Positions 6,013-36,700 of a stretch of DNA of 64,000 nt are shown piece by piece. Made by a program: the position numbers and the translations under genes. Below the pieces are notes generated by a model. That model ran no database searches and was not told the origin of the DNA. It saw only the letters and a program-made list of their open reading frames with translations. Location: contig CAWFJP010000031.1 of NCBI GenBank assembly GCA_963816145.1, positions 288,001-352,000 of the forward strand, given 5' to 3'. Each line of letters starts with the position of its first letter. Position 1 is the stretch's first letter. The DNA is from an uncultured delta proteobacterium. GTDB taxonomy: Bacteria > Desulfobacterota > Binatia > UBA9968.

Positions 6013-6055
6013 CGTCTAATATTAGACATTAATCCATCACCAGTCCGTGTAAGCT
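6013..6055 (+). promoter_or_regulatory. CRP-like dyad CGTCT-AATATT-AGACA plus -10 TAAGCT (21-bp gap)
   Basis: Member of the 10-copy motif family; class II geometry; precedes the 6162 ORF. Confidence 0.7.
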
Positions 6056-6161
6056 CATCAGTTCCAGTTAAGCCAGTATCGGCCATCGGCGTTTACCTGA
6101 AATTCTTCAAGTAAGCCTGCTTTTGTATTTTCTTTTAACCGGTCCAACCGAGGAGGTTCCA

Positions 6162-6482
6162 ATGTTTAGCCGAAACGTGAGTTACAAGCTCAAGGCCAAA
6201 AGTGCGGCGGAGTTTACCCGCATTGTCGAAGGAGAAGTCATTCCCTTGCTGCGGCGGCAAAAAGGATTCGACGATGCAATCAGTTTCATCGCGCCGGAGC
6301 GCAATGAAGCGATCACGATCAGCCTGTGGGACAAAAAAGAAGACGCGGAGGCCCATATCGCGAAGACCTATCCGGAGATATTAAGGGCTCTTTCGAGCGT
6401 AGTCGAAGGCTCTCCTAAGGTGGAGTCCTTCGAGATCAGCAACTCGACCTCGCACCAGATCGCCGCCAGCCCGGTCAATTAG
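6162..6482 (+). CDS. ABM/dimeric alpha-beta barrel-like small protein
   Basis: GAGGAGG RBS; LRRQKGF...ISLWDKKEDAEA pattern typical of ABM-fold proteins. Confidence 0.7.
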   Translation: MFSRNVSYKLKAKSAAEFTRIVEGEVIPLLRRQKGFDDAISFIAPERNEAITISLWDKKEDAEAHIAKTYPEILRALSSVVEGSPKVESFEISNSTSHQIAASPVN

Positions 6483-6488
6483 ACTGTG

Positions 6489-6531
6489 ATGGCGGTTCGG
6501 CGATGGGGCGACTCCCTTGCCGGACCGCCAT
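6489..6531 (+). terminator. GC-rich hairpin after the 6162-6482 gene
   Basis: ATGGCGGTTCGGCGA pairs with TTGCCGGACCGCCAT; only a weak U-tract follows. Confidence 0.45.
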
Positions 6532-6645
6532 GACTTTCGGTGTGGCGCGCTGCTGATCGCGCGTTGCGCTGTCCTGCAGCTCTGTTCGCGCCGATGATGT
6601 CACGCTACCTGGACTTAGCACGCACCAAGAGGTACTGTCACGACG

Positions 6646-6681
6646 CATGGGGGGGGCGCGAGTGTCTCGCGCTCCCCCATG
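6646..6681. repeat. Inverted repeat upstream of CRP-like gene 1
   Basis: CATGGGGGGGGCGCGAG-TGT-CTCGCGCTCCCCCATG. Confidence 0.55.
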
Positions 6682-6750
6682 ACTGACTGACCAAGCCCTT
6701 GGTTAAATCGACTGTTACCTTAGCATCGTGGGCTTCGAAATGGAGACACG

Positions 6751-7434
6751 ATGGCGATTCAACAAACACCCCAATCAGACCTGTTCAAGCAACAACTGCG
6801 CGAATCCTTGCATCGCGAGACGGCAAATAGTCGTGCCATCAAGATTGCCCGGCACGCCAACGTTTACACCTGCGGCGATCGCGACGAGATGGTGTATTTC
6901 GTCGAGAGCGGCCAGGTCAAACTGCTCATGTTGTCTTCCGAGGGGAGGGAGTGCCTCCTGGCGATTCATAGCGCGGGCGATATCTTCGGCGAGCTTTGTC
7001 TTTCCGGTTTAGGCGCGCGTTTGGAAACCGCTACGGCGATGAAGGCGACGACGCTCAAACAGATTCCCTGCTCGCAGTTCTTCGTGCGTCTTAGCCGCGA
7101 CTTGCTGTTCGAGGGGTTTGTGCGCTACTTGGCGGTGCGGATCGCCGACCAGCAGCAGATCATCGCCAATCTTGTGACCGTGGATAGCGAGCAGCGGCTG
7201 GGCCAGACGTTGTTGCAGTTGGCTCGCACCATGGGCAAGAAAGATCCGCGCAGCATCCGAATCGAGCTCAAGATCACCCATGAAGAACTCTCCGAGATGG
7301 TCGGCACGACGCGGCCGCGCATTAGCCTGTTCATGCAACGATTTCACAATCTGGGTCTGATCGAGACCAACAAGGACCGCTTTTTCATCATCAAAGAAAA
7401 GAAACTCACCGACTACCTGGAGCAGATTGCCTAG
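6751..7434 (+). CDS. CRP/FNR-family transcriptional regulator (paralog 1)
   Basis: cNMP-binding barrel (ESGQVKL...GDIFGELCL), C-helix, HTH THEELSEMVGTTRPRIS. Confidence 0.93.
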   Translation: MAIQQTPQSDLFKQQLRESLHRETANSRAIKIARHANVYTCGDRDEMVYFVESGQVKLLMLSSEGRECLLAIHSAGDIFGELCLSGLGARLETATAMKATTLKQIPCSQFFVRLSRDLLFEGFVRYLAVRIADQQQIIANLVTVDSEQRLGQTLLQLARTMGKKDPRSIRIELKITHEELSEMVGTTRPRISLFMQRFHNLGLIETNKDRFFIIKEKKLTDYLEQIA

Positions 7435-7582
7435 AATTTTTCGGCGGTTTGACTCGACTTGCCACCGGGCGAATAGGCGCGGATCATGCATTCGCTCGCT
7501 TTGCATTGAGTTCGTTAAAGGAAAACTTTCAGGTTAGCCAGCTACTGCATGTAGCAAGGCCCGACGCGGGATGCTGCTAGCC

Positions 7583-7756
7583 CTATGACTGTGGATCTTT
7601 TTGTCGGGTTGCCGTCACTCCATGGACGATCGCTATGCCGACCAAACAGAGAATGGCCACGCCGATCCACTGCATCGGCACGTTGAGTATATTGGCTCCG
7701 ATCGCCAGGCCGGCGATCAGTATGATGTATCCGACAAGATAGATTCCAAATGACAT
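7583..7756 (-). CDS. 57-aa two-TM membrane microprotein (not in ORF track)
   Basis: Hand translation MSFGIYLVGYIILIAGLAIGANILNVPMQWIGVAILCLVGIAIVHGVTATRQKDPQS; AAGGAG RBS; own motif-bearing promoter. Confidence 0.8.
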   Translation of the reverse strand: MSFGIYLVGYIILIAGLAIGANILNVPMQWIGVAILCLVGIAIVHGVTATRQKDPQS

Positions 7757-7818: not shown

Positions 7819-7861
7819 AGCATATAAAGGCCCGCTAAGCCTTGATGTTCACTATGAGACA
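7819..7861 (-). promoter_or_regulatory. CRP-like dyad TGTCT-CATAGT-GAACA plus -10 TATGCT (21-bp gap)
   Basis: Motif family member oriented toward the 7756 microprotein. Confidence 0.7.
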
Positions 7862-11694: not shown

Positions 11695-11737
11695 ATTATG
11701 CCGGTTATGCGCGGGGATTACTGTCCAATAGTAGACC
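11695..11737 (-). promoter_or_regulatory. CRP-like dyad GGTCT-ACTATT-GGACA plus -10 CATAAT (21-bp gap)
   Basis: Motif family member oriented toward the mlaE-F-D-pqiC operon. Confidence 0.7.
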
Positions 11738-11975: not shown

Positions 11976-12635
11976 TCATTGAGATATTTGCCCGGCTAAG
12001 GACACCTTCTCATGCAGTACGGTGCCTTGGTATTTGTTTTCAGGCTTGTTACGGAAGCACACCTTGGTTCGAGCTCCGCTGTTCGCAGTCGCTGGCAGCA
12101 AGAGAATCTCTGGGTCAAATGAGCCATTACTTACGCCCCGGTGTGGCAGCACAACTTTCATTATCTCCAGACTGATCAATGGAAGAGCGCTCAGGGCAAG
12201 AAGTACGAAGCAATCGGCAAGCGGCATATAGGACGTCTTCAGGAAGTTGCCGAGAATCGCGTTGTGTTGGCTCCCCACCTGGAGGCCGAAAGAAATGGCA
12301 ACCACAATGACGAGGTTGAAGTTGGTGAATAGCGAGATGCGCCAGACCGGCTTGGTCTCACTGCGGGCACCGAAGGAGCGCAAGAGTTCGGCAAAAACCA
12401 ACACGGTGAAGGCGGAAGTGCGGGCCATTGCCAGGGTTCCCGTCTGCAAGACATAAAGGTAAACCGCGAACGCGACGCCCGCCGTCAGCAAGCCGGTGAA
12501 AAACATCGCGCGGAGAAAGCTGGCGTCAGCGATGCTCTCCGAACGCTGGCGCGGGCGGAGTTTCATCACATCGGGATCGATGGGGTCGGTGGCGAGGCAG
12601 AGTGCCGGTAGACCGTCGGTGACAAGATTAATCCA
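11976..12635 (-). pseudogene. C-terminal remnant of a cation-transporting P-type ATPase
   Basis: [24 protein letters not shown] (TM6) and later TM helices; all N-terminal domains missing; homology ends near 12150. Confidence 0.85.
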
Positions 12636-12844
12636 TGGGCATAGATGAAGTTCAGCCCCGGTGTCGTGCTCCAATGGCCGAGCAGGCGTGGTTTGATGTG
12701 TGCCAGCTTGAGCGGTTTCTTCAACAGCAGATTGTCGTAGAGATAAATCTGTCCAACGGAAAGATAGTTCGCCGCGCGCCAATAGGCGTTTGTCTTACGC
12801 AGCGATTCTGCACTGAGTGTCCTAGAGTCGAGGTTTGTTTTCAT
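12635..12844 (-). pseudogene. xfp: N-terminal remnant of phosphoketolase
   Basis: [19 protein letters not shown]...[22 protein letters not shown], then an abrupt join to the ATPase sequence. Confidence 0.88.
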
Positions 12845-14132: not shown

Positions 14133-15045
14133 GCTATTTTCCTTTCCGTATATTGTTGCCGAAAAAATACGCTGCGGGCCACCTGCCGATTACTCAACTC
14201 CTAATAACAGCTTTGCTTGATGTGAGGTAGCGGAGTCATACGGCGAGATATAGCCCAGCCGATAATTTCTTCAGCAGTGCCTCGCACTGCTTTTCCGTCG
14301 GGCTTTGCGGCAGTCTCGACAAGTCACGGTGAATCAACAAGTCCAATTTCACGACGCCGCCGGAACTAAGTTCCACCGACGCGCCAAGCGGCGCAGCTAG
14401 TCGGTTCCGTCCGCCCGGCAGCGTGCCCGCGAATCACAAGGTTCTAATTTTGAATTGCAGATTGTCACGGTGGCTCATGTCGGTAGGAATCGCCACCTCC
14501 AAGTGCTTGCCTACTACTGCTGTCATAGCGTGTCCGAGCGGGTCATACCCAGGGCGATCGCAGTGATCCCAGTCCTGACAAACCAATAGCTATTCGAGAA
14601 GTACCATGTCGCAAGTGATGCATTTAAAGCTGTGCATCTACCTCACTCAAACAACATGCTCGCGATTGAAGTCGTTAGTGCTAAGTGTTCATGTCGACCG
14701 GCGATTTCCGTTGGCTTTGAAATAAGCTCCAGACTGGAGGTACTGCCAACTCAGAACCCCCGTATGCTTACCTTGTCGCCACCCTCGGCATGTTCGCATC
14801 GCCGCTCATATCCTGGGTCGGCTCCACCGATGCCTCGCGCGCCGCCAAAACTCGCAACTGCCCGACTTGCTTCACGTAGGTTTTTGCCAGCCAAACGTTG
14901 GCGGTGAAATGATTCATTTTATAAGCAGTATCGACCAGTCCATACTAGTACCGCTGCGCCGGCGGCCCAGGCCAACTTTTCTTGTACAGTCGTATCGTGC
15001 ATTTCCTAGTCGTCCTGCTTTGATTTTGATGATCGCCTGAAACCC

Positions 15046-15393: not shown

Positions 15394-15455
15394 CCATATT
15401 TGTTATCTCCTCGTTTGCTGTTTGCTGATTTTATTTCTTACGTCATTTATCTAGA

Positions 15456-15944: not shown

Positions 15945-15987
15945 AGGATACGCGTTGCCCACGGGATTTGCTGTGCAAAAGTAGACA
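15945..15987 (-). promoter_or_regulatory. CRP-like dyad TGTCT-ACTTTT-GCACA plus -10 gcgTATCCT (21-bp gap)
   Basis: Motif family member oriented toward the lmo0937-like gene. Confidence 0.7.
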
Positions 15988-16121: not shown

Positions 16122-16164
16122 TGTCTAATATTGGACGGTCTTCAGAGACTTTTTGGCGTATTCT
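16122..16164 (+). promoter_or_regulatory. CRP-like dyad TGTCT-AATATT-GGACG plus -10 gcgTATTCT (21-bp gap)
   Basis: Motif family member upstream of hsp20-lon. Confidence 0.78.
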
Positions 16165-21159: not shown

Positions 21160-21202
21160 CGTCCAGTATTAGACAGCAATCCCGCCCCAGGCGGCGCATG
21201 AT
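21160..21202 (+). promoter_or_regulatory. CRP-like dyad CGTCC-AGTATT-AGACA plus -10 gcgCATGAT (21-bp gap)
   Basis: Motif family member upstream of the 21235-dodecin pair. Confidence 0.75.
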
Positions 21203-26641: not shown

Positions 26642-26657
26642 CGTCCAGTATTAGACA
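26642..26657 (+). promoter_or_regulatory. CRP-like dyad CGTCC-AGTATT-AGACA
   Basis: Identical 16-mer to the 21160 site; -10 element less clear here. Confidence 0.68.
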
Positions 26658-27154: not shown

Positions 27155-27264
27155 CATTGCCGTCGAATCGCGGACGTAGCTTCAAGGGAATCTGACCGCT
27201 GGTTAAATCGTTATTGACGAGCGTCAGGACCGCGTGGAATCCATCGGCAATTTTTTTTTAAGCT

Positions 27265-27307
27265 CGTTCAATACTAGACAGAAACCGTTTGCTACTCAGC
27301 GTACACG
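27265..27307 (+). promoter_or_regulatory. CRP-like dyad CGTTC-AATACT-AGACA plus gcgTACACG (21-bp gap)
   Basis: Motif family member upstream of receiver paralog 2. Confidence 0.65.
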
Positions 27308-27364
27308 TACCGGGCCAGACTCGATAGTCATCATCAGGATGAGTACGTCTGGTTCGGAGGAGAT

Positions 27365-27835: not shown

Positions 27836-27859
27836 TTATCGGCGTCAGGCGCGGATGGT

Positions 27860-27885
27860 AACAGAAACATCATTATGTTTCTGTT
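27860..27885. repeat. Perfect 11-bp inverted repeat AACAGAAACAT-CATT-ATGTTTCTGTT
   Basis: Read directly; lies just before the RBS of the 27904 ORF. Confidence 0.6.
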
Positions 27886-27903
27886 CTGAAGGGAGAACGC
27901 GGC

Positions 27904-28098
27904 ATGAAACTCAATCATAACCGTAACCGGATCAATACCACCGTGGGCGATCTCATAGCGGCGATCACCGATGCCGCCTTGGAATGCACCGATAATACCA
28001 AGGATGCCTACCGTCTGGCCAGCGTAGTTCTGGTGGAGATTTTGAAAAACGCTCCCCTCAGCGCCGATATCGTCGATCCGCCTTTCTATTGGCATTGA
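27904..28098 (+). CDS. Small hypothetical protein (64 aa)
   Basis: AAGGGAG RBS; amphipathic helices (TTVGDLIAAITDAALE...AYRLASVVL). Confidence 0.65.
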   Translation: MKLNHNRNRINTTVGDLIAAITDAALECTDNTKDAYRLASVVLVEILKNAPLSADIVDPPFYWH

Positions 28099-28268
28099 AT
28101 ACGGCTCGAAATGACATCGGGATATCTGGCCGGATGTCGCGCGCCTGGTTGGCTCGTTCTTCTTGTTGTTGCCGTTACTAAGGCTTCGACGGCGGCTGCA
28201 CTCTGCTCTGCGGGCTAAGGTCTTTACGCGATGCGTTCTTATGTATATAGCCATTCCTAGGCCGTGCC

Positions 28269-29318
28269 ATGAGGATCGCTCAGATCACCAGTGTTTACAT
28301 CTCGGTCCCGCCGAAGACGCATGGAGGCACCGAGCGTGTCGTCTATAATCTCTGCCAGCAGCTCAGCCGGCGCGGACATCAGGTGGAACTTTTTGCTTCC
28401 GGGGACTCGAAGGTTGACTGCACCCTCCAGTCTGTTTTGCCGATCGCCTGTCAGGATGATCCCCATTCGACCTTTTATCTCGAAAAGGAGTTTGAGACAC
28501 GCCACACTTATGACCTTTATCGGCAAGCCGAACGCTTCGAATTAATTCATGCTCACTGGCCGACACTGGCTCCGTATTTTTCGGTGTTTACCAAAACCCC
28601 CACACTGGTCACCTATGGTTATATCGAAAAGGAACTGCACGAATATTATCGAACCCACTTTCCGCAATGCCTTCCGGTATGTGTAAGCCAGGCGCAGAGA
28701 AAAATGTTAGGGGACGAATCGATTCCGGTGGTTTATAACGGCATCGATATGGATGAGATCGGGTTTAACGACAAGCCGGAAGATTTCTTCATCATCGTTG
28801 GCCGCATGACGCCAGGCAAAGGTATTGCCGAGGCAATCCGAATTATTAAAAAGGCTGGAGCGAAGCTGCTCATTGTCGGCCATGTCACGACTCACCTGCC
28901 GTGGAGCGAGGAGTATTTTCTCAAGGAGGTTAAGCCTCATATTGACGGAGATAAGATCCGCTACATCGAGCGGTTGCCCTATCACGAAATCGTCCAACTG
29001 ATGAGCCAGGCCAAAGGGTTTCTTTTCCCACTGCAGTGGGATGAGCCTTTCGGCATGGTCGTCGTCGAAGCCATGGCTGCGGGAACGCCGGTAGTGGCGT
29101 ACCCGCGAGGCTCCATGCCGGAGTTGATCAAGCATGGTGAGACCGGCTATTTGCTCGACATCGAGGATGAGATGGTTGATACGCTCGATCGCATCGACAC
29201 GTTGGATCGCGCCCGCTGCCGGAACTGGGTCGAGGAGCGTTTCTCGGTGGAGCGGATGGTCGATGGCTATGAAAGACTTTATCGGATGGCCGCGAGCGAC
29301 GGTCGGGGCGCGACCTAA
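28269..29318 (+). CDS. Glycosyltransferase family 4
   Basis: VPPKTHGGTERVV, WDEPFGMVVVEAMAAGTPVV. Confidence 0.92.
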   Translation: MRIAQITSVYISVPPKTHGGTERVVYNLCQQLSRRGHQVELFASGDSKVDCTLQSVLPIACQDDPHSTFYLEKEFETRHTYDLYRQAERFELIHAHWPTLAPYFSVFTKTPTLVTYGYIEKELHEYYRTHFPQCLPVCVSQAQRKMLGDESIPVVYNGIDMDEIGFNDKPEDFFIIVGRMTPGKGIAEAIRIIKKAGAKLLIVGHVTTHLPWSEEYFLKEVKPHIDGDKIRYIERLPYHEIVQLMSQAKGFLFPLQWDEPFGMVVVEAMAAGTPVVAYPRGSMPELIKHGETGYLLDIEDEMVDTLDRIDTLDRARCRNWVEERFSVERMVDGYERLYRMAASDGRGAT

Positions 29319-29333
29319 GGTCGACGGCAATTA

Positions 29334-30329
29334 ATGGCCGGTGAAAAGTGGAACCTTGAACGACTGCAAAGCGAGAGCAGCTATTGGCGCACGTGCCTGC
29401 TGATCACTGCGGCTCATCTTGATGTGTTCGGTTGGATTGGCAAGTGTGAAAAAACTTCCAGGGCGGCGGCGCGCCATTTCGGTGGGGACTCTGGGGGCTG
29501 GGAGATGTTTCTCAACGCGCTTTGCGGCATGGGCCTGCTGAGAAAACACGGCCAACAATTTGTAAACGCGCGTTTTGCGGCGCGTTACCTTGCCGGGGCC
29601 GAAGCAACTTGCCTTCTGCCCAATTACGATGCTTGGAACAGCTGGGGCGGGCTCGCTTCGGTTCTCACAACCGGAAAAAGACCAAGGATTCAGAAACCAT
29701 TCATTTCGGACCGCGCCCAGGCAAAGCGCTTACTTTGCGCTCTGGATCTCCACGCGCGGCAGATCGCTCCTTATCTGATCGAGAAATTACCTCTGTCCGG
29801 CTGCCGGACTCTGCTGGATGTCGGCGGCGGGCTGGGAACTTTTGCCAGGGCTTTTTGTCGTCATTATCCTCAGCTTCAGGCGACCCTTGTTGAGCATCCC
29901 AATATTTTTCTTCTGGCGCGTCGGGCTATCAGGGACTCGGGTATGGCGAAAAGAGTCCGGGTCATCGGGCTGGATATCTCGCGGGGTGCCCTGCCACGAG
30001 GATTCGATGGCGTATTCGTCTCCAATATCTTACACGCCCATGGGGTCGCGGAAAATCGCGCGCTACTTACTGAACTGCGACACTGTCTAAACCCTGGAGG
30101 GCAGTTGATCCTGCGCGATGTCTTCATGCGTCGGGATCGGACCGCTCCGGAGTGGGCGGCGCTCTTTTCGGTTTCGCTGCTTTTGCACACGCCCAAAGGA
30201 CGTTGTTACACTCTGAAGGAGATTCTCGGATGGTTGAACCAAGCCGGGTTCTCACGTATCAGCAGGCCCTTCCGCAGCAGTCCGCTTCCTTTTGATCCCG
30301 ATTCGATTCTAATAGCGAAGAAGAGCTAG
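29334..30329 (+). CDS. Class I SAM-dependent O-methyltransferase with dimerisation domain
   Basis: LLDVGGGLG, VSNILH, LNPGGQLILRD. Confidence 0.88.
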   Translation: MAGEKWNLERLQSESSYWRTCLLITAAHLDVFGWIGKCEKTSRAAARHFGGDSGGWEMFLNALCGMGLLRKHGQQFVNARFAARYLAGAEATCLLPNYDAWNSWGGLASVLTTGKRPRIQKPFISDRAQAKRLLCALDLHARQIAPYLIEKLPLSGCRTLLDVGGGLGTFARAFCRHYPQLQATLVEHPNIFLLARRAIRDSGMAKRVRVIGLDISRGALPRGFDGVFVSNILHAHGVAENRALLTELRHCLNPGGQLILRDVFMRRDRTAPEWAALFSVSLLLHTPKGRCYTLKEILGWLNQAGFSRISRPFRSSPLPFDPDSILIAKKS

Positions 30330-30474
30330 AGGCCAGACCGCGGACAGCGCTTACGCGCCTGACAGCATTGCTGAAGATTTTGAACTGAGAAATTCTCAGA
30401 AGTGCAAATGTCGACTGTCACTTTTTCACGATTAAAAACCTGCCTCAAGTTGTTTCAACGCACCGTTGCCGCAT

Positions 30475-30596
30475 CTGACTATTTAGTCGAAAGTCTCGAC
30501 GCTTTCGCCGAGCGTTCTTTGATTGGTTTATCTTGACGGTTAAAAAATCTTTCCGAACATCTAGCTTTTTCCTCTGGTCTCTCGGCGGTTTATTGC
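30475..30596 (+). promoter_or_regulatory. Tandem enhancer (30475-30511) plus degenerate sigma54 promoter CGGCGG-TTTA-TTGC (module C)
   Basis: CTGAC-TATTTA-GTCGA-AAGTC-TCGAC-GCTTTC-GCCGA; 71-bp gap; GG-N9-GC is one base short. Confidence 0.62.
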
Positions 30597-30686
30597 CACG
30601 GCGGCGAGTTCCAACCACAAATTGGTTTACTATATAAACGGGAACGGCCGTAAGGGCGCCGGTCTTGAAAACAGGGGGGGTGCTTT

Positions 30687-30938
30687 TTGCCTTTGGTTCA
30701 AATCGTATTGGTCCTGATCGTGGTGGGTATTCTCCTCGGGCTGATCAATCGCTACATACCGATGGCGGGATCTATTAAGTCGATGTGGTCAAGTAGTTCC
30801 CAATCAATCGTTGCCTATGGGCAAAGGAAGCAAGTGTTACGCGGCGAAGTACAGAAAGCGTTTGAACGGCTAGGCTACTTTCAGGATCCTGAGCCGAATA
30901 CCGTCGTTGAACTTGGGATTCGAATGAGTCCGAAGTGA
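30687..30938 (+). pseudogene. Chimeric ORF: Thivi_2564-like membrane protein N-terminus fused to the C-terminus of a 31141 paralog
   Basis: MPLVQIVLVLIVVGILLGLINRYIPMAGSIKS then WSSSSQSIVAYGQRKQVLR, matching WSSNPQLIVAYEQRREMLR of the next gene. Confidence 0.65.
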
Positions 30939-30983
30939 CATTAAGACGGCCCACCGATGAGCGGCTAGTTAACACCATTGGTT

Positions 30984-31107
30984 TCGACGATTTGGTCGAA
31001 GTGTTCGACGTCGCCGACGAGCATATCGTTTCGGCCCGTTTATCATGCAAATATTGCCTTGCAATCTCCAGCATCTTCCCCGCGTCAAGCTCTGGCACGT
31101 GTTCTGC
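30984..31107 (+). promoter_or_regulatory. Tandem enhancer (30984-31020) plus sigma54 promoter TGGCAC-GTGTT-CTGC (module D)
   Basis: TCGAC-GATTTG-GTCGA-AGTGT-TCGAC-GTCGCC-GACGA, 72-bp gap. Confidence 0.8.
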
Positions 31108-31140
31108 TCTCTGAATGGATTGGATGCAAAGGAGCTTGTT

Positions 31141-31365
31141 ATGAAGAAAATCATTGAAATCCACGGTCAGCGGGTCGAACTCTACAGCCGAGACGAGGGC
31201 CGCACCTGGTCGAGCAATCCGCAATTAATTGTCGCCTATGAGCAACGCCGGGAGATGTTGCGCTTGGAGATACAACAGAAGTTCGCACGGATAGACGATA
31301 TGCAGGCATCGAAGCGCTACGGCTCCCATGGATTCGAGATGTCAAGCCGAGTGTCTTCATGGTGA
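31141..31365 (+). CDS. Small hypothetical protein (74 aa)
   Basis: AAGGAG RBS, ATG 31141, directly downstream of module D; paralogous fragment upstream. Confidence 0.72.
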   Translation: MKKIIEIHGQRVELYSRDEGRTWSSNPQLIVAYEQRREMLRLEIQQKFARIDDMQASKRYGSHGFEMSSRVSSW

Positions 31366-32207
31366 GAAAAAAACGAGAGCGCGTGCCTTCAATGTTTTAA
31401 CCATTGCTATTGTAATTTCGGCGCAACGAGGAATCGGTCACGCAAAGATAAAAGACAACATAATGATCCCTCGGCTATATCGAACGGTGAAATGAGAGTC
31501 GCGAGGTCGTGATCATGAAAATCAATTATTTCAAAATAGCAAACCGTAGTATTGAGGTTCTCGAACAGTCGAACAAGATTAGCTATTGGCAACTCATCGC
31601 TCTTCAGAGCCGAGCTAATGGTTGTTTCTATCAGTTTGATAAACTCCCCCAGATAAGATGGAAGTGGCCGACCGGCACGTGGTTTCAAGAACGGCTGGCC
31701 AAAAATCCCGGGATGCCGTCCTTCCAGCACAGTGACCGAATAGTTACATAGCGCCGAGCAGCGACCATCGTGAAGTGCCGAGCATACGGAATCCTGGAGC
31801 CGGGACTGCGGCATTCATCGACTCGTCGACCGGCGTAGCGGGCAATCGGAAAATATTTTCGCAATTGTCCGCTTTTAGACGGGAATGCCTCTCGGGCGAG
31901 GCTATTCTCTATTCGAGAGAAACGTTACAGCACCGCCCCGAGAACTCTCGGGCGAAGGCCAAAGCCATTTACTTTACTCGTAGTCACCAAAAAAGGAGGA
32001 CGCCACTTCGAAAAGAATAGGAGTTTACCTGACGTTGAAAGCGACCGAGACAACCATCGTACAGCTCTCAAAAAGCAGAAAATTGGGATGTCGCGTCAGT
32101 GGTGGTTATGCGGGACTCTATTTCAAAGTGGCGGGTAATCCGGAGGTACATTCGGCAGTAGTAACCCGATCCGTGATTGAGGATCCGAACCATAGGGGGA
32201 GACAGAT

Positions 32208-32420
32208 ATGTGGAACAAAGATGAGATCAAAGGCAAAGGCAAGCAAATTTCTGGAGCGATCAAAGATAAGACGGGGGAATTGATCAAAAGTCCCAAGCTC
32301 GAAGCCGAAGGGGAAGCGGAACAGCTAGCGGGAAAGGTTCAGGAGAAAACCGGCAAGGCGCGCCGCAAAACCGGTGAAGCGATTGTGAAGACGGCCAAAT
32401 CGATTGCGGGCAAATTATAG
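32208..32420 (+). CDS. CsbD-family stress protein
   Basis: MWNKDEIKGKGKQISGAIKDKTGEL...LEAEGEAEQLAGKVQEKTG. Confidence 0.9.
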   Translation: MWNKDEIKGKGKQISGAIKDKTGELIKSPKLEAEGEAEQLAGKVQEKTGKARRKTGEAIVKTAKSIAGKL

Positions 32421-32535
32421 TATCGACCTCAGTTGATTATAAGAAATGGCTGGCGGCAGAGAGCGGGTTTTGTCGATCAACTCTTTGCCGCCAAGTATTA
32501 ACCCATAGAAATAAAGTCCAAAAGTAGATTATAGC

Positions 32536-32958
32536 GTGATTTATTCTGCATCGCCTTTTTCTAATTTCGCCAAGTGGACGGCACGAGCGACCGGTCATCC
32601 AGCGGCATTCATGAGCGCGGCTGCGATCATCGCGGTCTGGGGCGTCACGGGGCCGATATTTGAGTATAGCGATACCTGGCAACTGGTCATCAACACTGGC
32701 ACGACGATCATCACATTCCTGATGGTATTCTTGATTCAAAATACCCAGAACCGTGACAGCCACGCGGTGCAATTGAAACTTGACGAGCTAATTCGCGCCG
32801 TGAGCGGCGCGCACAACGCGCTACTCGATCTCGAAGGCCTTGAAGAAGCGGACTTGGAACGGTTTCGCGCGCGCTACGAAGGACTTGCGCGCGCAGCGCG
32901 CGAAGCGCTGCGTCGCGGCGAGTTGGATACCGGCACCCCCGAGGTCAAAGCGGATTAA
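32536..32958 (+). CDS. Low-affinity iron permease (Fet4-like) family protein
   Basis: SDTWQLVINTGTTIITFLMVFLIQNTQNRD...KLDELI. Confidence 0.92.
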   Translation: MIYSASPFSNFAKWTARATGHPAAFMSAAAIIAVWGVTGPIFEYSDTWQLVINTGTTIITFLMVFLIQNTQNRDSHAVQLKLDELIRAVSGAHNALLDLEGLEEADLERFRARYEGLARAAREALRRGELDTGTPEVKAD

Positions 32959-32963
32959 GTGAG

Positions 32964-33644
32964 ATGGCGATGGTGAGGCACGAGTGGTTTGGGCTGGACG
33001 TCAAGCATTGGAAGGAGATTAAGCAAATGAACCAGCTTGCGGTACAGAGCGCAGCAGTGTCTATTGACCAAATGGAAATTGGCGAACCGCGACAAGTCTT
33101 TCTTTTCAGTGGACATATGGTTGATGCTCCCGATCGGTCGCCGGCGCGCTTTCCGCCTGAGATGGAACCGCACGCGGCCGCTGCGATCGCTAAACTGCTC
33201 AATGAACTAGGCGCCGGCGCCGATGATGTGGCGATCTCAAGCGGCGCTTGCGGAAGCGATCTGCTTTTCGCCGAAGCCTGTTTGAAGCGCAACGTGCGAG
33301 TAGAGATCTACTTACCATTTGTCGAGGAGGAATTTCTCAAAAATTCCATCGATTTCGCCGGCAAACAGTGGCGGGATAGGTTTTTTGCGGTCAAAAAGCA
33401 GATCCAAGGTTGGCGCATAATGCCGCAGGAGTTGGGACCTACGCCGGCACGGGAAGATCCCTTTGCCGGCGTCAACCTGTGGATGCTCCATCAAGCGCTC
33501 GCGTATGGAACAAAAAAAGTCTGTTTCATCTGCCTCTGGGATCGCCAAGCGGGTGATGGACCGGGCGGCACGAAACACTTGCACGATGCCGTCGTTCAGG
33601 GCGGAGGAAAGGCTTATGTGCTCGATACCGCAAAGCTCTGGTAA
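32964..33644 (+). CDS. Stand-alone SLOG-like Rossmannoid domain (usually C-terminal in TPR/DUF4071 proteins)
   Basis: FLFSGHMVD.P.R...RFP, SGACGSDLLFAE, LWD...GDGPGGT; start uncertain, may be a remnant. Confidence 0.6.
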   Translation: MAMVRHEWFGLDVKHWKEIKQMNQLAVQSAAVSIDQMEIGEPRQVFLFSGHMVDAPDRSPARFPPEMEPHAAAAIAKLLNELGAGADDVAISSGACGSDLLFAEACLKRNVRVEIYLPFVEEEFLKNSIDFAGKQWRDRFFAVKKQIQGWRIMPQELGPTPAREDPFAGVNLWMLHQALAYGTKKVCFICLWDRQAGDGPGGTKHLHDAVVQGGGKAYVLDTAKLW

Positions 33645-33981
33645 TGTTCCGCAATCATCGAGCTAAAACTAAGATGGATCATTAATTGTAGGCAAGAGCG
33701 TTCTTGAATGCGCGGCAGATGTTGGTCGGTTGAGTGACGTTGATGTGCGTCTACACACCCCGCCAGCCGAGTTGGAATAGTCGGTTTCCGCAGATTGGTT
33801 GATAGATGGGTTTGAGCCTGTGATCTTTTTGAATGTCGATGACGAGTAAGTCGCACGTGACCTGGAGGTAGCCGCCGGTGAAAGCCATCTCTGAAGTTAC
33901 CGACTTAGGTCTTGGGTCGGCGTCCGAGTGAACCGCCAACGCAAGCAACCTTCGATTCGATCGCTATTCACCTGATCCGTT

Positions 33982-34105
33982 CCGACCATTTGGTCGACAG
34001 TTTCGACGCTAATGGCTAGCGGTTTCTTGATTTTCCTCTGTCAGCCTTACGAAGTGATCGAAAATAAAGACTTTTCCCCGTTGGAAGGCCTGGCACCGAT
34101 CGTGC
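33982..34105 (+). promoter_or_regulatory. Tandem enhancer (33982-34018) plus sigma54 promoter TGGCAC-CGATC-GTGC (module E)
   Basis: CCGAC-CATTTG-GTCGA-CAGTT-TCGAC-GCTAAT-GGCTA, 72-bp gap. Confidence 0.8.
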
Positions 34106-34147
34106 GCTGCTAATACGTAGAATCAACGAAACGGAAAAGGAGTGACT

Positions 34148-34228
34148 ATGGATACTTTATTGATCGTTCTCATCGTGTTGTTTGTACTCGGCGGTGGCGG
34201 TTGGGGATATTCTCGCTGGCGCCGGTAG
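34148..34228 (+). CDS. 26-aa membrane microprotein, DUF3309-like (not in ORF track)
   Basis: MDTLLIVLIVLFVLGGGGWGYSRWRR; AAGGAG RBS; first gene after module E. Confidence 0.75.
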   Translation: MDTLLIVLIVLFVLGGGGWGYSRWRR

Positions 34229-34267
34229 CACCAGCGATTAACCAGATGAAAGAAAGGAAAAACAGGC

Positions 34268-34342
34268 ATGAACAACATATTTTACATTGTCGGTGTTGTT
34301 GTGGTGGTGATCTTCGTTGCCGGGTATCTCGGTCTGAGGTAG
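34268..34342 (+). CDS. 24-aa single-TM microprotein (not in ORF track)
   Basis: MNNIFYIVGVVVVVIFVAGYLGLR; GAAAGGA RBS. Confidence 0.7.
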   Translation: MNNIFYIVGVVVVVIFVAGYLGLR

Positions 34343-34401
34343 GCCGGAGGGCCGGACTTTGGCGATGAGCTTCTTGGTTATCTGTTTAATCGCCACGGTC
34401 T

Positions 34402-34473
34402 AACTCCCCGCAGCTTACTGCAATTGTTTGATAGGTTCGAACTGACACCCCGCTGCTTGCGGCGGGGTTCTTC
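34402..34473. repeat. REP/MITE-like palindromic element remnant
   Basis: Hairpin ACCCCGCTGC-TT-GCGGCGGGGT (34447-34468) and a related half-copy CTCCCCGCAGC near 34404. Confidence 0.4.
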
Positions 34474-34478
34474 ATACC

Positions 34479-34520
34479 TGTCCAGTACCGGACGGTACTC
34501 TCTAATGAGTAAGCTAAAGT
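34479..34520 (+). promoter_or_regulatory. CRP-like dyad TGTCC-AGTACC-GGACG plus -10 TAAAGT (20-bp gap)
   Basis: Motif family member upstream of the long CsbD gene. Confidence 0.65.
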
Positions 34521-34563
34521 TAACCACTCAAAAAACCCATACTGAATGACGGAGGAATGCTCG

Positions 34564-35094
34564 ATGAACCAAGACATTTTTGCAGGGCAATGGAAGCAAA
34601 TGCGCGGCGAGTTGAAATCGTGGTGGGGCAGACTCGCCGATGACGACTTGGAACGAATCGGCGGTCACAAAGACCAGCTTATCGGTTTAGTGCAGGAGAA
34701 ATACGGTTACGCCCGCGAGCATGCCGAGCAAGAGGTGGAGCGGCACCTCAAAGAGTTTAGCGACAAAACGGATGGAGCCGTCGCCAATATGACTGCCAAG
34801 GCGCAGGAGCTTGGTACGGCTGCCGCGAACAAGGCCAACGAAGCGGCCACAGTCGTCGGCGAGAAAATCGGTTCGCTGGCGCATGTGATTCGGGAAAATG
34901 CTCCGCACGACGGACCGGTGGCAACCGCGGCGACTGTGGTAGTCGATGGGCTGGAATCTACAAGCTCTTACTTGCGCGAGAAAAAATTCGACCATCTGGC
35001 AAAAGACGTCACGGCTTTGGTCCGCAGCTATCCTGTGCGAGCGTTACTGATCGCTGTCGGCCTTGGCTATTTGCTGGGTCGGCGCCCGAGATAA
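34564..35094 (+). CDS. CsbD-domain protein with ElaB/YqjD-like C-terminal anchor
   Basis: MNQDIFAGQWKQMRG...LVQEKYG; C-terminal VRSYPVRALLIAVGLGYLLGRR; GGAGG RBS. Confidence 0.88.
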   Translation: MNQDIFAGQWKQMRGELKSWWGRLADDDLERIGGHKDQLIGLVQEKYGYAREHAEQEVERHLKEFSDKTDGAVANMTAKAQELGTAAANKANEAATVVGEKIGSLAHVIRENAPHDGPVATAATVVVDGLESTSSYLREKKFDHLAKDVTALVRSYPVRALLIAVGLGYLLGRRPR

Positions 35095-35385
35095 AGCATG
35101 GACACCGGGGGTCCAAATCCTAGAGACCGACTTACTAGCCATTACTCTGTCCTGCAATAAATGGATGCATCAACTGTAATCAAAAGTTTCAATGGCCTTT
35201 TACCGAGATACACTAACGAATTTGCCTCTGGAACGGCGGTTGACCAAAAGGCACGACTTAGACCCATGTCGGATTGCCCGCAATGCGGATGGTGATTGCG
35301 AGGTGTCGTGCCACAACCTTACCCCTACGGTAGATCGTGTGAGAGATCAGAACAGAAATATTTTCTTTGGAAAGACGCTGACACT

Positions 35386-36033
35386 ATGAAATCGTGGGCC
35401 GACTTTAAAAGTATCCTGCCCTACGCGAGTGACTTATTCGGAGTTTATCAGCCGCTACGACGCTGGAAATTTCGCATTATTGGCAATCTTTTCGACAAAT
35501 TTCGCAACGCGCTCTATCCTAACCTTGCTGAGCAGGTGCGGTCGTCGCAGCTTGCGCCGTTGCAAGGGCAACTCGAACGGGAGACAGGCGCAGAATTGGC
35601 GACCGATACCGGACGTCAAGCGCCAAGTATCAGCGACCCCAAGCCGGTTGCCTTTGTCAGCGAGGTGCCGCCCCCACTGGCACCCGCTATCGACTGCGGT
35701 ATTGCTCGGTTGTTACAACGCGATATCGGCAGCAACCCGCCGCGGGATTGGGGGCGCTTGATCACAACCGAATCGATGACGACGCGGCTGGAGAAGTTGA
35801 AAACCATTGTCGCCAAACCTGCTGAATTACAAAATTTTCCCGATATCGCTGATTACGTTCAAAGCTTCACCCAGGCGATCGCTACCAGCGATCAAGCCCA
35901 GCTCATGCAATCGATGTTCGATAAGGAAGCACGTCTCTCGGGTTTTTTGCTCTTCCTCGCACGGCACAAGCCGACTCAATTGAACGAAATATTTTTCACC
36001 GCGCCACAGGCGGATAATCGTCCGGCTGCCTGA
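35386..36033 (+). CDS. Hypothetical protein, probably the truncated N-terminus of a larger protein
   Basis: Coding-like 215-aa frame (FKSILPYASDLFGVYQPL...) with no recognisable complete domain. Confidence 0.45.
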   Translation: MKSWADFKSILPYASDLFGVYQPLRRWKFRIIGNLFDKFRNALYPNLAEQVRSSQLAPLQGQLERETGAELATDTGRQAPSISDPKPVAFVSEVPPPLAPAIDCGIARLLQRDIGSNPPRDWGRLITTESMTTRLEKLKTIVAKPAELQNFPDIADYVQSFTQAIATSDQAQLMQSMFDKEARLSGFLLFLARHKPTQLNEIFFTAPQADNRPAA

Positions 36034-36241
36034 AAATCACGGCTTGGACCGCGTGGCATTTGGGGCACGTGTGTGACGAGCCAACGTGCATTTACCGAGC
36101 TACGTCCACCCCTTTGGCACTGTAGTAAGGACGCGGATTGCTTGCGGCCGGGAATTACCCGCCAGCCTCTGAACTGATGGCGGCATGCCGCACAGTCGCC
36201 GGTAATCAATCTTTTTTAACTTACTCACCGCTGGTTCTTAT

Positions 36242-36365
36242 TCGACCTTTTGGTCGAGAGTCTCGACGCTTTTAACGAGCCATCTGTTAAATGCAACCAG
36301 CCCGCCTCAATAAGCTCTCGGAAACATGGTCTTTCCCTTGCCGTAATGTTCGGCACAGATAGTGC
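36242..36365 (+). promoter_or_regulatory. Tandem enhancer (36242-36278) plus sigma54 promoter CGGCAC-AGATA-GTGC (module F)
   Basis: TCGAC-CTTTTG-GTCGA-GAGTC-TCGAC-GCTTTT-AACGA, 72-bp gap. Confidence 0.82.
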
Positions 36366-36414
36366 TCCAGATAATTGGCGTTAGAAAACTAAATCCAAAA
36401 CTAGGAGATACACT

Positions 36415-36561
36415 ATGCGGTCGATCATTTTCGCAGGAGTTATGTTGTTGCTGTTAGGCACGAACGTGGCTTGCAACACGGTTCATGGTGTCGGGCAAGA
36501 CATCGAGCGGGCGGGCGAAAAGACTCAGGACGCGGCGGACGCCGTGAAGAAAAAATTGTAG
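36415..36561 (+). CDS. Entericidin EcnA/B-family lipoprotein (48 aa, not in ORF track)
   Basis: MRSIIFAGVMLLLLGTNVACNTVHGVGQDIERAGEKTQDAADAVKKKL; ACNT..G.G.DI..G motif; AGGAG RBS. Confidence 0.88.
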   Translation: MRSIIFAGVMLLLLGTNVACNTVHGVGQDIERAGEKTQDAADAVKKKL

Positions 36562-36657
36562 TCCGATCAAAGAAATGAAATGCACGGAGTCTTTAACTCG
36601 GGCCAGCTGGAGCAGTCATTTCGTGAATACAGGCCTAACCATATTTCTTTGCAAACT

Positions 36658-36700
36658 CGTCCAAAATTAGACAGCCAATCCTGACTTGTCAGCGTAGAGA
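36658..36700 (+). promoter_or_regulatory. CRP-like dyad CGTCC-AAAATT-AGACA plus gcgTAGAGA (21-bp gap)
   Basis: Motif family member upstream of the 36727 lipoprotein-M48 cluster. Confidence 0.68.

What the first reader, a model, noticed from the sequence alone, without database searches (positions are those of the whole stretch)
6013..36700. Ten copies of a CRP-geometry operator YGTCY-N6-RGACA at the class II (-41.5) position
Seen: dyads at 6013(+), 7846(-), 11722(-), 15972(-), 16122(+), 21160(+), 26642(+), 27265(+), 34479(+) and 36658(+), mostly with AT-rich spacers. Exactly 21 bp downstream, toward the adjacent gene, lie TAAGCT, TATGCT, CATAAT, TATCCT, TATTCT, CATGAT, TACACG and TAGAGA. At 34479 TAAAGT is at 20 bp; 26642 is unclear. 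The hexamer is often preceded by GCG. Established: a 16-bp 5-6-5 core ending 21 bp before the -10 is the class II CRP/FNR activation geometry. The half-site TGTCY differs from CRP (TGTGA) and FNR (TTGAT).
Basis: partly seen in the sequence, partly recalled or inferred. Interest (0 to 1): 0.85.

Follow-up and report, generated by a model that had tools for sequence, protein, structure and literature searches.

The report
CRP-type activator sites on stress promoters
A 16-base palindrome sits at one fixed place in about a dozen look-alike promoters of stress-protection genes, most likely the docking site of neighbouring CRP-family activator proteins, which makes it a new member of a well-known kind of gene switch.

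Summary
All ten dyads and the listed hexamers are at the stated places, and there is an eleventh dyad at 31866. The exact pattern occurs 7 times against 0.69 expected.

Genome-wide, a matrix built from the window sites finds only three more strong sites. The regulon therefore sits almost wholly in about 43 kb.

In 144 non-identical sites from this genome and 63 related loci, TANNNT starts exactly 21 bp after the dyad in 71 of 288 orientations. Other offsets give about 3.

Each site is part of a stereotyped module of about 65 bp:
- an A/T tract like an UP element
- the dyad TGTCYAATATTRGACA
- G-AA
- GCG-TAnnnT

Three paralogous CRP/FNR proteins with identical recognition helices (GTTRPRIS) are the best candidates for the binding protein. 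They carry Pro where CRP has Glu181, as does Cmr, which prefers TGTC...GACA. They also co-occur and co-localise with the dyad in two distant lineages.

Target genes are stress genes: Hsp20-Lon, CsbD, YflT, Mla and receiver proteins.

Binding, activation and transcript starts are not shown. One related genome has the dyads without the close regulator.

Verdict: real, and a new member of the known class II CRP/FNR kind.

The parts
6013..6028 (+). Dyad CGTCTAATATTAGACA. TAAGCT lies 21 bp downstream. Drives the ABM-like ORF 6123-6482 and probably the CRP-family gene 6751-7434.
   Evidence: PWM 23.5; the same position is conserved in relative L002
6751..7434 (+). CRP/FNR-family regulator of 227 aa (cNMP_binding + HTH_Crp_2) with recognition helix GTTRPRIS. 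Candidate binder of the dyad.
7846..7861 (-). Weaker dyad (read on the - strand: TGTCTCATAGTGAACA). TATGCT lies 21 bp downstream. Drives the 57-aa membrane ORF 7583-7756(-).
   Evidence: PWM 14.4
11722..11737 (-). Dyad (- strand: GGTCTACTATTGGACA). CATAAT lies 21 bp downstream. Drives the Mla/Mce-type ABC operon from 11530 down to 7919 (MlaE, ATPase, MlaD, auxiliary lipoprotein).
   Evidence: PWM 22.6
15972..15987 (-). Dyad (- strand: TGTCTACTTTTGCACA). TATCCT lies 21 bp downstream. A small membrane ORF lies downstream on the - strand. Divergent partner of 16122.
   Evidence: PWM 19.7
16122..16137 (+). Dyad TGTCTAATATTGGACG. TATTCT lies 21 bp downstream, followed by GGAGGAGG and an ATG at 16201. 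Drives Hsp20 (to 16632) and Lon (16629-19037).
   Evidence: PWM 23.8
21160..21175 (+). Dyad CGTCCAGTATTAGACA. CATGAT lies 21 bp downstream. Drives the unknown 200-aa membrane-anchored protein 21217-21819. OmpA-like, histidine kinase and sigma-54 activator genes follow.
   Evidence: PWM 27.3
26642..26657 (+). Dyad CGTCCAGTATTAGACA. The -10 is unclear (TTAAGT at 21 bp). Drives the single-domain response regulator 26735-27154.
   Evidence: PWM 25.8
27265..27280 (+). Dyad CGTTCAATACTAGACA. TACACG lies 21 bp downstream. Drives the single-domain response regulator 27365-27835.
   Evidence: PWM 22.5
31866..31881 (+). An A/T tract lies upstream and TATTCT lies 21 bp downstream. The target is unclear (82-aa ORF 32035-32280; iron permease 32536-32958).
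   Evidence: PWM 20.2
34479..34494 (+). Dyad TGTCCAGTACCGGACG. TAAAGT lies 20 bp downstream. Drives the CsbD-like protein 34546-35094.
   Evidence: PWM 21.4
36658..36673 (+). Dyad CGTCCAAAATTAGACA. TAGAGA lies 21 bp downstream. Drives the 111-aa putative lipoprotein 36727-37062 and the M48 peptidase 37141-37812.
   Evidence: PWM 25.4
43630..44310 (+). Second CRP/FNR-family paralog (226 aa), 82% identical to 6751-7434 and with the same helix-turn-helix. No dyad was found next to it.
   Evidence: no PWM hit of 12 or more nearby

Best explanation
Each dyad is the binding site of a dimeric CRP/FNR-family activator. It sits inside a stereotyped promoter module of about 65 bp.

Layout of the module, taking the TAnnnT hexamer as -12 to -7:
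- The dyad TGTCYAATATTRGACA spans -49 to -34, with its centre at -41.5.
- Where a -35 hexamer should be there is only CAGnAA.
- An A/T tract (AATTTyTTTTCAAAA) lies at about -65 to -51. Its T-run is centred about 18 to 19 bp from the dyad centre.
- GCG precedes the -10.

Proposed binder. The three near-identical paralogs are window 6751-7434, window 43630-44310 and C1:110346-111011. They share one recognition helix (GTTRPRIS) but differ in the sensor domain.

Proposed mechanism. A bound dimer recruits RNA polymerase as CRP and FNR do at class II promoters. One alpha C-terminal domain docks on the upstream A/T tract.

Proposed output. The regulon is protective: Hsp20-Lon, CsbD, YflT-like, Mla/Mce lipid transport, LapA, OmpA-like, small membrane proteins, receiver proteins and further regulators. 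One of the CRP genes itself probably belongs to it.

Shown:
- the sites
- their fixed geometry and orientation
- their conservation
- their linkage to the CRP genes

Inferred:
- which protein binds
- activation rather than repression
- alpha-CTD use
- the transcript starts
- the (unknown) signal
For: Reality of the sites.
- 7 exact matches against 0.69 expected.
- a 24-nt matrix built from the 10 best window sites gives 13 sites scoring 19 or more in 7.82 Mb. Ten are its own training sites. Only three are new: C31:281344 (6.7 kb left of the window), C29:156997 and C1:115461.

Fixed geometry.
- TANNNT starts at offset 21 in 71 of 288 orientations of 144 non-identical sites, at offset 22 in 13, and at other offsets in 0 to 7.
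- with one site per downstream-protein cluster (67 clusters) the counts are 29 at 21, 7 at 22 and 4 at 20. Other offsets average 1.14, with a maximum of 4.

Oriented module.
- (71 sites): T-run at positions -9 to -6 before the dyad (56 to 62 of 71). AAAA at -4 to -1. G at +17 (67 of 71). A at +19 and +20 (65 and 60 of 71). G at +35 (57 of 71).
- of the other 73 sites, almost all show the same asymmetry, with a one-mismatch -10.
- The best match of the -35 position to TTGACA is 2 of 6 (read).
- Alpha-CTD sites next to CRP are centred 18 to 19 bp from the CRP site centre, and class II sites are usually centred at -41.5 (PMC2859248, introduction and section 9, passages read).

Which protein.
- both window proteins have cNMP_binding and HTH_Crp_2.
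- in the alignment to a solved CRP-family protein (4cyd), its R-E-T-V-N-K aligns with R-P-R-I-S-L here.
- Cmr also has Pro at that Glu position and binds TGTCA-N6-YGACA. Positions 4C and 13G discriminate Cmr sites from CRP sites (PMC4705688 sections 19 and 28; PMC5758884 sections 15 and 27, passages read).
- the three paralogs share an identical helix-turn-helix.
- among 60 family sequences of 61 to 92% identity, all 50 that my pattern caught read GTTRPR[IV]S.

Linkage.
- 134 sites scoring 17 or more lie in 842,426 bp flanking 63 orthologs (L044-L106). None lies in the 33,933 bp of the three distant control loci (L107-L109).
- only 2 such sites lie in G000 outside C31:281344-324673.
- C1:115461 lies 4.4 kb from the C1 paralog.

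Co-occurrence.
- 18 genus genomes with a close ortholog hold 84 strict dyads. Seven genus genomes without one hold 10. Sixteen genomes of two other families hold 3.
- The reversed-pattern control gives 17 in the 24 genus genomes other than G000 and 0 in G000.
-, in a second and distant lineage: 9 of 12 genomes with the protein have at least one strict dyad, against 3 of 19 without it.

Direction; an ORF of 100 aa or more starts within 260 nt in the predicted direction at 92 of 130 sites, against 47 of 130 in the opposite direction.

Regulon..
Against: - No binding, expression or transcript-start data exist. The RNA runs found are assembled contigs, which cannot show starts.
- G004 (same genus, 92% complete, 10 contigs) has 5 strict dyads in full promoter context but no close ortholog. 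Its best hit is 26% identical. tblastn with the three paralogs found nothing at E of 1e-3 or better in the nine fetched regions of G004, G024, G011 and G008.
- G024, G011, G008 and G001 also have 1 or 2 dyads without a detected ortholog.
- Three genomes with an ortholog (G013, G016, G021) have no strict dyad.
- In the second lineage the strict pattern is not above its reversed control in absolute number: 19 against 27 in genomes with the protein.
- The matrix was trained on the window's own sites, so the genome-wide concentration is partly built in.
- Related genomes are not independent samples.
- The spacer between dyad and -10 is more conserved (ccGAGTCaGCG) than a plain class II model needs.
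- The phosphate-binding cassette reads R-L-E rather than the usual R-S/T-A (my reading, motif recalled), so the effector is unknown.
Confidence: 0.65

Rival explanations
1. The dyad is a real operator in these promoters, but a different protein binds it. One candidate is the second CRP-family type found in the genus (helix-turn-helix GASRQQVTE). Another is an unrelated dimeric regulator encoded in the same gene cluster. On this view the RPR-type paralogs are only neighbours.
For: G004 has 5 strict dyads, and 7 sites scoring 15 or more in five fetched regions. It has no close ortholog. The 26%-identical CRP-family gene lies among three sites in L114. That second type also occurs in several genus genomes.
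Against: G000 shows no copy of that second type. Its only hits are the three paralogs and a 940-aa cNMP-domain protein. Yet it has 14 modules.

The dyads track the RPR-type gene in two distant lineages. The Pro at the Glu181 position fits a 4C/13G preference, as in Cmr (PMC4705688, PMC5758884).

The only other DNA-binding regulator seen in the window cluster is a sigma-54 activator with a Fis-type HTH.
Confidence: 0.15
2. The CRP-family paralogs do bind the dyad, but as repressors. They would block the -35 region of promoters that are otherwise driven by the upstream A/T tract and the -10. Stress would release them.
For: The site overlaps the -35 position. CRP/FNR proteins can repress: Cmr autorepresses (PMC4705688 section 28), and HcpR is predicted to do both (PMC545781 section 24). 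The UP-like tract could give basal strength.
Against: The position is invariant to the base pair in 144 sites, which is typical of activators. Repressor sites are usually more variably placed (general knowledge).

The -35 position matches TTGACA in at most 2 of 6 bases and there is no TGn extended -10. The promoters therefore look activator-dependent.

The A/T tract sits one helical turn too far upstream for a classical UP element (-59 to -38, recalled). It does sit where alpha-CTD lies beside a class II activator (PMC2859248 section 9).
Confidence: 0.12
3. The conserved module is the promoter of an alternative sigma factor for general stress. The right half of the dyad plus G-AAtCCC would serve as a -35-like element and GCGTA as a -10. 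No separate activator would be needed.
For: General stress regulons are usually sigma-controlled (SigB, RpoS, EcfG; general knowledge). The spacer and flanks are unusually conserved. G-AAyC and CGTA faintly resemble ECF -35 and -10 elements (recalled consensus).
Against: The upstream half-site, which a sigma factor would not read, is conserved as strongly as the downstream half. The two halves are symmetric, which points to a dimer.

The gap between AAt and CGT is 14 nt, against 16 to 17 in ECF promoters (recalled). TAnnnT is the housekeeping-type -10 signature.
Confidence: 0.05

Closest known systems
Class II CRP- and FNR-dependent promoters of E. coli (site centred at -41.5)
   Same: - A dimer site of 5-6-5 geometry overlaps the -35 region, with its centre 29.5 bp before the -10 hexamer.
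- The -35 is poor.
- An A/T tract lies where alpha-CTD sits upstream of the activator, 18 to 19 bp from the site centre (PMC2859248, passages).
   Different: - The half-site is TGTCY, not TGTGA or TTGAT.
- The recognition helix is R-P-R-I-S-L, not R-E-T-V-G-R (the E. coli residues are recalled).
- All known sites of the regulon use this one geometry. No class I or repressor-type positions were seen.
- The proteins fall far below the NCBIfam cut-offs for CRP, FNR, NtcA, FixK and YeiL.
Cmr (Rv1675c) of the M. tuberculosis complex
   Same: - CRP/FNR family.
- 16-bp palindrome TGTCA-N6-YGACA with 4C/13G as discriminator bases.
- Pro at the CRP Glu position of the recognition helix.
- Stress- and dormancy-linked regulon (PMC4705688, PMC5758884, passages).
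   Different: - Cmr sites are hundreds, scattered and degenerate, with no conserved flanks reported, and Cmr autorepresses.
- Here there are few sites, all in one rigid promoter module with an AT-rich centre (AATATT).
- Orthology was not tested.
- I did not examine whether the Lys193 position or Cmr's Arg-loop are conserved here.
CooA (Rhodospirillum, Desulfovibrio) and MrpC (Myxococcus xanthus)
   Same: The operator core is TGTY-N8-RACA. CooA: TGTCGGCnnGCCGACA (PMC545781 section 23 and tables). MrpC: TGTYN8RAC from ChIP-seq (PMC4320627 section 10). Both are CRP-family dimers that activate.
   Different: - CooA controls CO-oxidation operons and senses CO through haem.
- MrpC controls starvation-induced development, with more than 1600 putative sites.
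- Neither is reported with a fixed 65-bp module.
- No coo genes were seen among the targets here.
- Sequence relationship to MrpC was not tested. CooA-1 structures are only distant hits (E 1.9e-17).
SdrP of Thermus thermophilus and DdrI of Deinococcus (stress-linked CRP-family regulators)
   Same: CRP-family regulators tied to stress or stationary phase. They are reported to act without cAMP (DdrI: abstract seen in the listing; SdrP: recalled). SdrP's structure 2zcw is a distant hit (E 9.7e-8).
   Different: Their operators are different. I saw only a search listing for these papers, so no detailed comparison was made.

Membership tests
CRP/FNR transcription factor family (the proteins at 6751-7434 and 43630-44310) | N-terminal cyclic-nucleotide-binding-type beta-barrel domain | tested here: met
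   PF00027 with E 1.4e-12 and 3.5e-14, both above the gathering score
CRP/FNR transcription factor family (the proteins at 6751-7434 and 43630-44310) | C-terminal Crp-type helix-turn-helix | tested here: met
   PF13545 with E 3e-14 and 1.9e-13. Full-length alignments to solved CRP-family proteins, best E 4.9e-20.
CRP/FNR transcription factor family (the proteins at 6751-7434 and 43630-44310) | Membership in a named, characterised subfamily (CRP, FNR, NtcA, FixK, YeiL, PtrA, LdrP, FtrB) | tested here: not met
   All NCBIfam equivalog and subfamily scores are far below the cut-offs, for example CRP 61.6 against 266 and FNR 48.9 against 228
Class II activator-dependent promoter | Inverted-repeat activator site overlapping the -35 region and centred near -41.5 from the transcript start | tested here: inconclusive
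   The distance to a -10-like TAnnnT is fixed at 21 bp after the 16-mer, which gives -41.5 if the start is about 7 nt after the hexamer. No transcript start was mapped (one search gave contigs only).
Class II activator-dependent promoter | Weak or absent -35 hexamer | tested here: met
   The consensus at the -35 position is CAGnAA, at most 2 of 6 matches to TTGACA
Class II activator-dependent promoter | Transcription depends on the activator and on its contacts with RNA polymerase | not testable with these tools
   Needs in vitro transcription or genetics. The A/T tract 18 to 19 bp from the dyad centre is only consistent with alpha-CTD docking (PMC2859248).
TGTC-type operator specificity within CRP/FNR (Cmr, CooA, MrpC) | C at position 4 and G at position 13 of the 16-mer | tested here: met
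   Position 4 is C in 58 and T in 12 of 71 sites. Position 13 is G in 56 and A in 12 of 71.
TGTC-type operator specificity within CRP/FNR (Cmr, CooA, MrpC) | Non-Glu residue at the CRP Glu181 position of the recognition helix (Pro in Cmr) | tested here: met
   R-P-R aligns with R-E-T of a solved CRP-family protein. This is conserved in 50 of the 50 family sequences that my pattern caught; 10 of 60 were not caught and not inspected.
TGTC-type operator specificity within CRP/FNR (Cmr, CooA, MrpC) | Orthology to Cmr, CooA or MrpC | not tested
   No Cmr or MrpC sequence was available from a tool. CooA structures are only distant hits.

The most novel reading that the evidence does not exclude
The system may be a self-contained general stress response that needs no dedicated sigma factor. 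It would consist of several paralogous CRP-type sensors with one shared recognition helix and different sensor domains. All of them would feed into one stereotyped, portable 65-bp promoter cassette.

Both regulators and cassettes would have moved between bacterial phyla in soil. The regulators are 72 to 81% identical between genomes whose RpoB is only 56 to 65% identical. The module, dyad included, recurs around them in both lineages.

If so, the cassette works because it relies only on universally conserved RNA polymerase surfaces. The paralog set would integrate several stress signals at a single operator type.
Probability: 0.3. Interest if true: 0.7.

Novelty: new member of a known kind. 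Interest (0 to 1): 0.5.

Why it matters
The regulator family is very common in environmental data. A protein search gave 4435 clusters at E of 1e-10 or better. The best 120 are 72 to 100% identical and carry only generic names. The lineages concerned are uncultured.

The finding gives these lineages three things:
- a concrete and testable regulon for stress protection
- a precise operator and promoter grammar
- candidate sensors

The grammar is unusually clean, with one geometry in 144 sites. That makes it a good natural test bed for class II activation outside the model organisms. It is also a ready-made inducible promoter and regulator pair.

The apparent transfer of regulator and cis-module between phyla bears on how whole regulons spread.

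None of this changes the known principles of CRP/FNR action.

Tried and rejected
Checks that led nowhere or ruled something out:
- Embedded sigma-70 promoters. I looked by eye for a -35-like hexamer in the upstream tract or the right half-site (TTCAAA, TAGACA, TTRGAC) paired with a -10. The spacers would be 9, 21 or 22 bp. Rejected.
- Sigma-54 and RpoH consensus (recalled). No GG/GC pair at the -24/-12 spacing and no CCCCAT. Rejected.
- ECF-type reading. See the rival explanations; the spacing is wrong.
- Transcript starts from RNA runs. Seven soil RNA runs hold 6 to 11% of the sampled words of 15001-25000. I laid four runs on 15001-35000. They gave only short assembled contigs at 93 to 99% likeness, with no starts or ends (tables 6 and 8). 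They say nothing on -41.5. Uncovered parts are no evidence.
- Rfam. No family at gathering score in 5900-37200.
- tRNAs. None in the window, so there is no obvious integration hallmark. I did not search for integrases.
- G004. Its distant CRP-type protein was compared with solved structures. It gave only generic family hits, and the CooA helix could not be read from that output.
- Island transfer. ORFs flanking the acidobacterial copies (L078, L094, L084) mostly have no close match in this genome's cluster. What is shared is mainly the regulators, not a whole island.
- Literature. The exact dyad strings and 'TGTCC-N6-GGACA' occur in 0 papers of the held library. 'MrpC + GTGTC + binding site' gave 0, so the older GTGTC-N8-GACAC form is recall only.
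- Supplementary files of papers were closed and not consulted. The Cmr and MrpC site lists there might refine the comparison.
- I did not use structure prediction, fold search, complex prediction, the search of protein representatives or the protein-atlas search.

Unpublished genome. G005 is flagged as unpublished. It contributes one ortholog and 5 strict dyads to the tallies, and loci L005 and L035. No conclusion depends on G005.

Full report
**1. What was checked**

The pattern YGTCY-N6-RGACA occurs 7 times in the window. Dinucleotide-preserving shuffles give 0.69 on average, and 0 of 100 reach 7.

The seventh, at 31866, is new.

Eight lie exactly 21 bp after the 16-mer, TAAAGT lies at 20 bp for 34479, and 26642 is unclear. 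The new site at 31866 has TATTCT at 21 bp.

**2. Distribution in the genome**

The window is C31:288001-352000 of a 7.82-Mb assembly in 31 contigs, about 56% G+C.

I built a palindromised 24-nt matrix from the ten best window sites. It finds 13 sites scoring 19 or more in the whole genome. Ten are its own training sites. Only three are new: C31:281344 (6.7 kb left of the window), C29:156997 and C1:115461.

Because the matrix was trained on the window, this concentration is partly built in. Even so, the rest of 7.8 Mb offers almost nothing similar. The regulon is small and sits mostly in about 43 kb.

**3. Genes behind the sites**

By Pfam, the genes behind the sites are as follows:
- an ABM-like protein followed by a CRP-family gene
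- a 57-aa membrane protein
- an Mla/Mce-type ABC operon
- a small membrane protein
- Hsp20 followed by Lon
- an unknown 200-aa membrane-anchored protein followed by OmpA-like, histidine kinase and sigma-54 activator genes
- two single-domain response regulators
- a CsbD-like protein
- a small lipoprotein followed by an M48 peptidase

The site on C1 precedes a YflT-like protein.

FtsH, VIT1, a LapA-domain protein, YtxH and superoxide dismutase lie in the same cluster without a site of their own.

Taken together this is a stress-protection set.

**4. The module**

I pooled the G000 sites with all sites scoring 17 or more in loci around orthologous regulators. That gave 145 sites, 144 of them non-identical.

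Counted in both orientations without any prior choice, TANNNT starts exactly 21 bp after the 16-mer in 71 of 288 cases and at 22 bp in 13. At any other offset from 0 to 79 it starts in 0 to 7 cases.

To reduce the weight of orthologous promoters I kept one site per cluster of downstream proteins (67 clusters). The peak stays: 29 at 21, 7 at 22 and 4 at 20 of 134 orientations. Elsewhere the mean is 1.14 and the maximum 4.

Orienting the 71 clear cases shows a strongly asymmetric consensus:

AATTTyTTTTCAAAAt | TGTCCAATATTRGACA | GcAAtCCC...ccGAGTCaGCG | TAnnnT

The other 73 sites nearly all show the same flanks, with a -10 that is one base off.

An ORF of at least 100 aa begins within 260 nt in the predicted direction at 92 of 130 sites. 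In the opposite direction the figure is 47 of 130.

**5. Geometry**

Take the hexamer as -12 to -7. Then:
- The dyad spans -49 to -34, with its centre at -41.5.
- The -35 position reads CAGnAA, at most 2 of 6 matches to TTGACA.
- The T-run lies at -59 to -56 and the A-run at -54 to -51.
- The centre of the T-rich stretch is 18 to 19 bp from the dyad centre.

Published work places class II CRP sites at -41.5. It places the alpha-CTD contact beside CRP in a 6-bp stretch centred 18 to 19 bp from the CRP site centre. At class II promoters, AR1 of the upstream subunit contacts alpha-CTD (PMC2859248, introduction and section 9, passages read).

The match is by sequence only. No transcript start has been mapped.

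**6. Which protein**

The window encodes two proteins with cNMP_binding plus HTH_Crp_2. A third copy lies at C1:110346-111011. The copies are 76 to 82% identical, and their helix-turn-helix is identical.

In the alignment to a solved CRP-family regulator, its R-E-T-V-N-K pairs with R-P-R-I-S-L here. The Glu that reads G4/C13 in CRP-type sites is therefore a Pro.

The same replacement is reported for Cmr. Cmr binds TGTCA-N6-YGACA, and 4C and 13G are its discriminator bases against CRP sites (PMC4705688 sections 19 and 28; PMC5758884 sections 15 and 27, passages read).

CooA sites (TGTCGGCnnGCCGACA, PMC545781) and the MrpC ChIP-seq motif (TGTYN8RAC, PMC4320627 section 10) share the same core. 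So the half-site is new in detail, with its AATATT centre, but not in kind.

The proteins score far below every named NCBIfam subfamily. Databases name their relatives only generically.

**7. Linkage and co-occurrence**

A scan of one genome per species found 66 loci. Of these, 63 are relatives of at least 51% identity (L044-L106) and three are distant hits that I used as controls.

The 842,426 bp of the 63 loci hold 134 sites scoring 17 or more. The three controls hold none. A recurrent layout is a site 45 to 60 bp after the regulator's stop codon. Some sites directly precede a paralog (protein 10).

Within the genus:

| Group | Genomes | Strict dyads |
|---|---|---|
| Genus, with a close ortholog | 18 | 84 |
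| Genus, without a close ortholog | 7 | 10 |
| Two other families of the order | 16 | 3 |

The reversed-pattern control totals 17 in the 24 genus genomes other than G000.

In a second lineage, around the genome that holds L078:
- 9 of 12 genomes with the protein have at least one strict dyad, against 3 of 19 without it.
- The absolute count there is not above the reversed control: 19 against 27 in genomes with the protein, and 5 against 28 in those without.
- In that genome itself, 5 of 6 dyads lie within 12 kb of a regulator copy.

Kin are not independent, so I give no probability.

**8. Results against the reading**

- G004 has five strict dyads in full module context but no close ortholog in a 92%-complete assembly of 10 contigs. 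A CRP-family gene of another type (26% identical, helix GASRQQVTE) lies among three of its sites.
- G024, G011, G008 and G001 show one or two dyads without an ortholog.
- G013, G016 and G021 have the ortholog but no strict dyad. The strict pattern catches only about half of the true sites: 7 of 14 in G000.
- The conserved spacer is not explained by a plain class II model.
- The RNA data gave no starts.

**9. Spread**

Record titles name the close relatives variously: delta proteobacterium, Syntrophobacter sp., Candidatus Binatia or Thermodesulfobacteriota MAGs. Some loci come from MAGs titled Acidobacteriota or Blastocatellia, among them a 9.5-Mb chromosome.

RpoB identity to G000, against regulator identity:

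| Genome group | RpoB identity | Regulator identity |
|---|---|---|
| Two genomes of the first group | 98% and 93% | not compared here |
| Three of the second group | 56 to 65% | 72 to 81% |

Flanking genes are mostly not shared between the two groups.

This points to transfer of the regulators between distant lineages, and presumably of their cis-modules. No tree was built.

**10. Verdict**

The most likely explanation is class II-type activation of a compact stress regulon by a new subfamily of CRP/FNR regulators with Cmr/CooA/MrpC-like TGTY-N8-RACA specificity (confidence 0.65).

It is a new member of a known kind. The clean promoter grammar, the paralog set and the apparent cross-phylum spread make it moderately interesting.

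Noticed in passing
L078, L083, L084, L094, L101 (genomes G041-G043) compared with window 6751-7434: The regulator is 72 to 81% identical between genomes whose RpoB is only 56 to 65% identical to G000's. One such genome has three copies in tandem (L078: 8897-9577, 9998-10678, 10830-11513). This suggests transfer between phyla. Flanking genes are mostly not shared.
   Followed up: partly
L114 (G004:C9:1504788-1520803), L019: A second CRP-family type (243-aa open frame, helix GASRQQVTE, 26% identical to the window protein) lies among three dyads in a genome that lacks the close ortholog. It might read the same operator.
   Followed up: partly
window 15972-16137: Two modules face away from each other, 150 bp apart. 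One drives a small membrane protein on the - strand and the other drives Hsp20-Lon on the + strand.
   Followed up: partly
window 31866-32536: This complete module has no clear gene for about 650 bp. There is only an 82-aa ORF at 32035-32280 with no family. A soil RNA contig covers 32023-32403. It could be a small protein or a non-coding RNA. No Rfam family matches.
   Followed up: partly
window 11976-12782 (-): This ORF matches only the C-terminal domain of cation-transporting P-type ATPases. It is possibly a truncated or broken ATPase gene.
   Followed up: no
window 41496-42647 (+), directly upstream of the second CRP paralog: This 383-aa protein has no Pfam family. Its C-terminal part is about 71% identical to ORFs that lie beside regulator copies in L094. 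It is possibly a co-travelling partner gene.
   Followed up: no
window about 43380-43560 and C1 about 111140-111260: Similar small hydrophobic ORFs (beginning MSLILLIVL... and MGLILLIVL...) lie next to two of the three regulator paralogs.
   Followed up: no
window 22300-23700: Soil metatranscriptome contigs from three studies cover the OmpA-like and histidine kinase region at 93 to 99% likeness. This was the highest summed contig depth in the 20 kb laid. Contig depth cannot rank genes.
   Followed up: no
G060:C17:4786-4821: Two strict dyads lie 20 bp apart in mirror arrangement, in a genome where the regulator was not found at E of 1e-40 or better.
   Followed up: no
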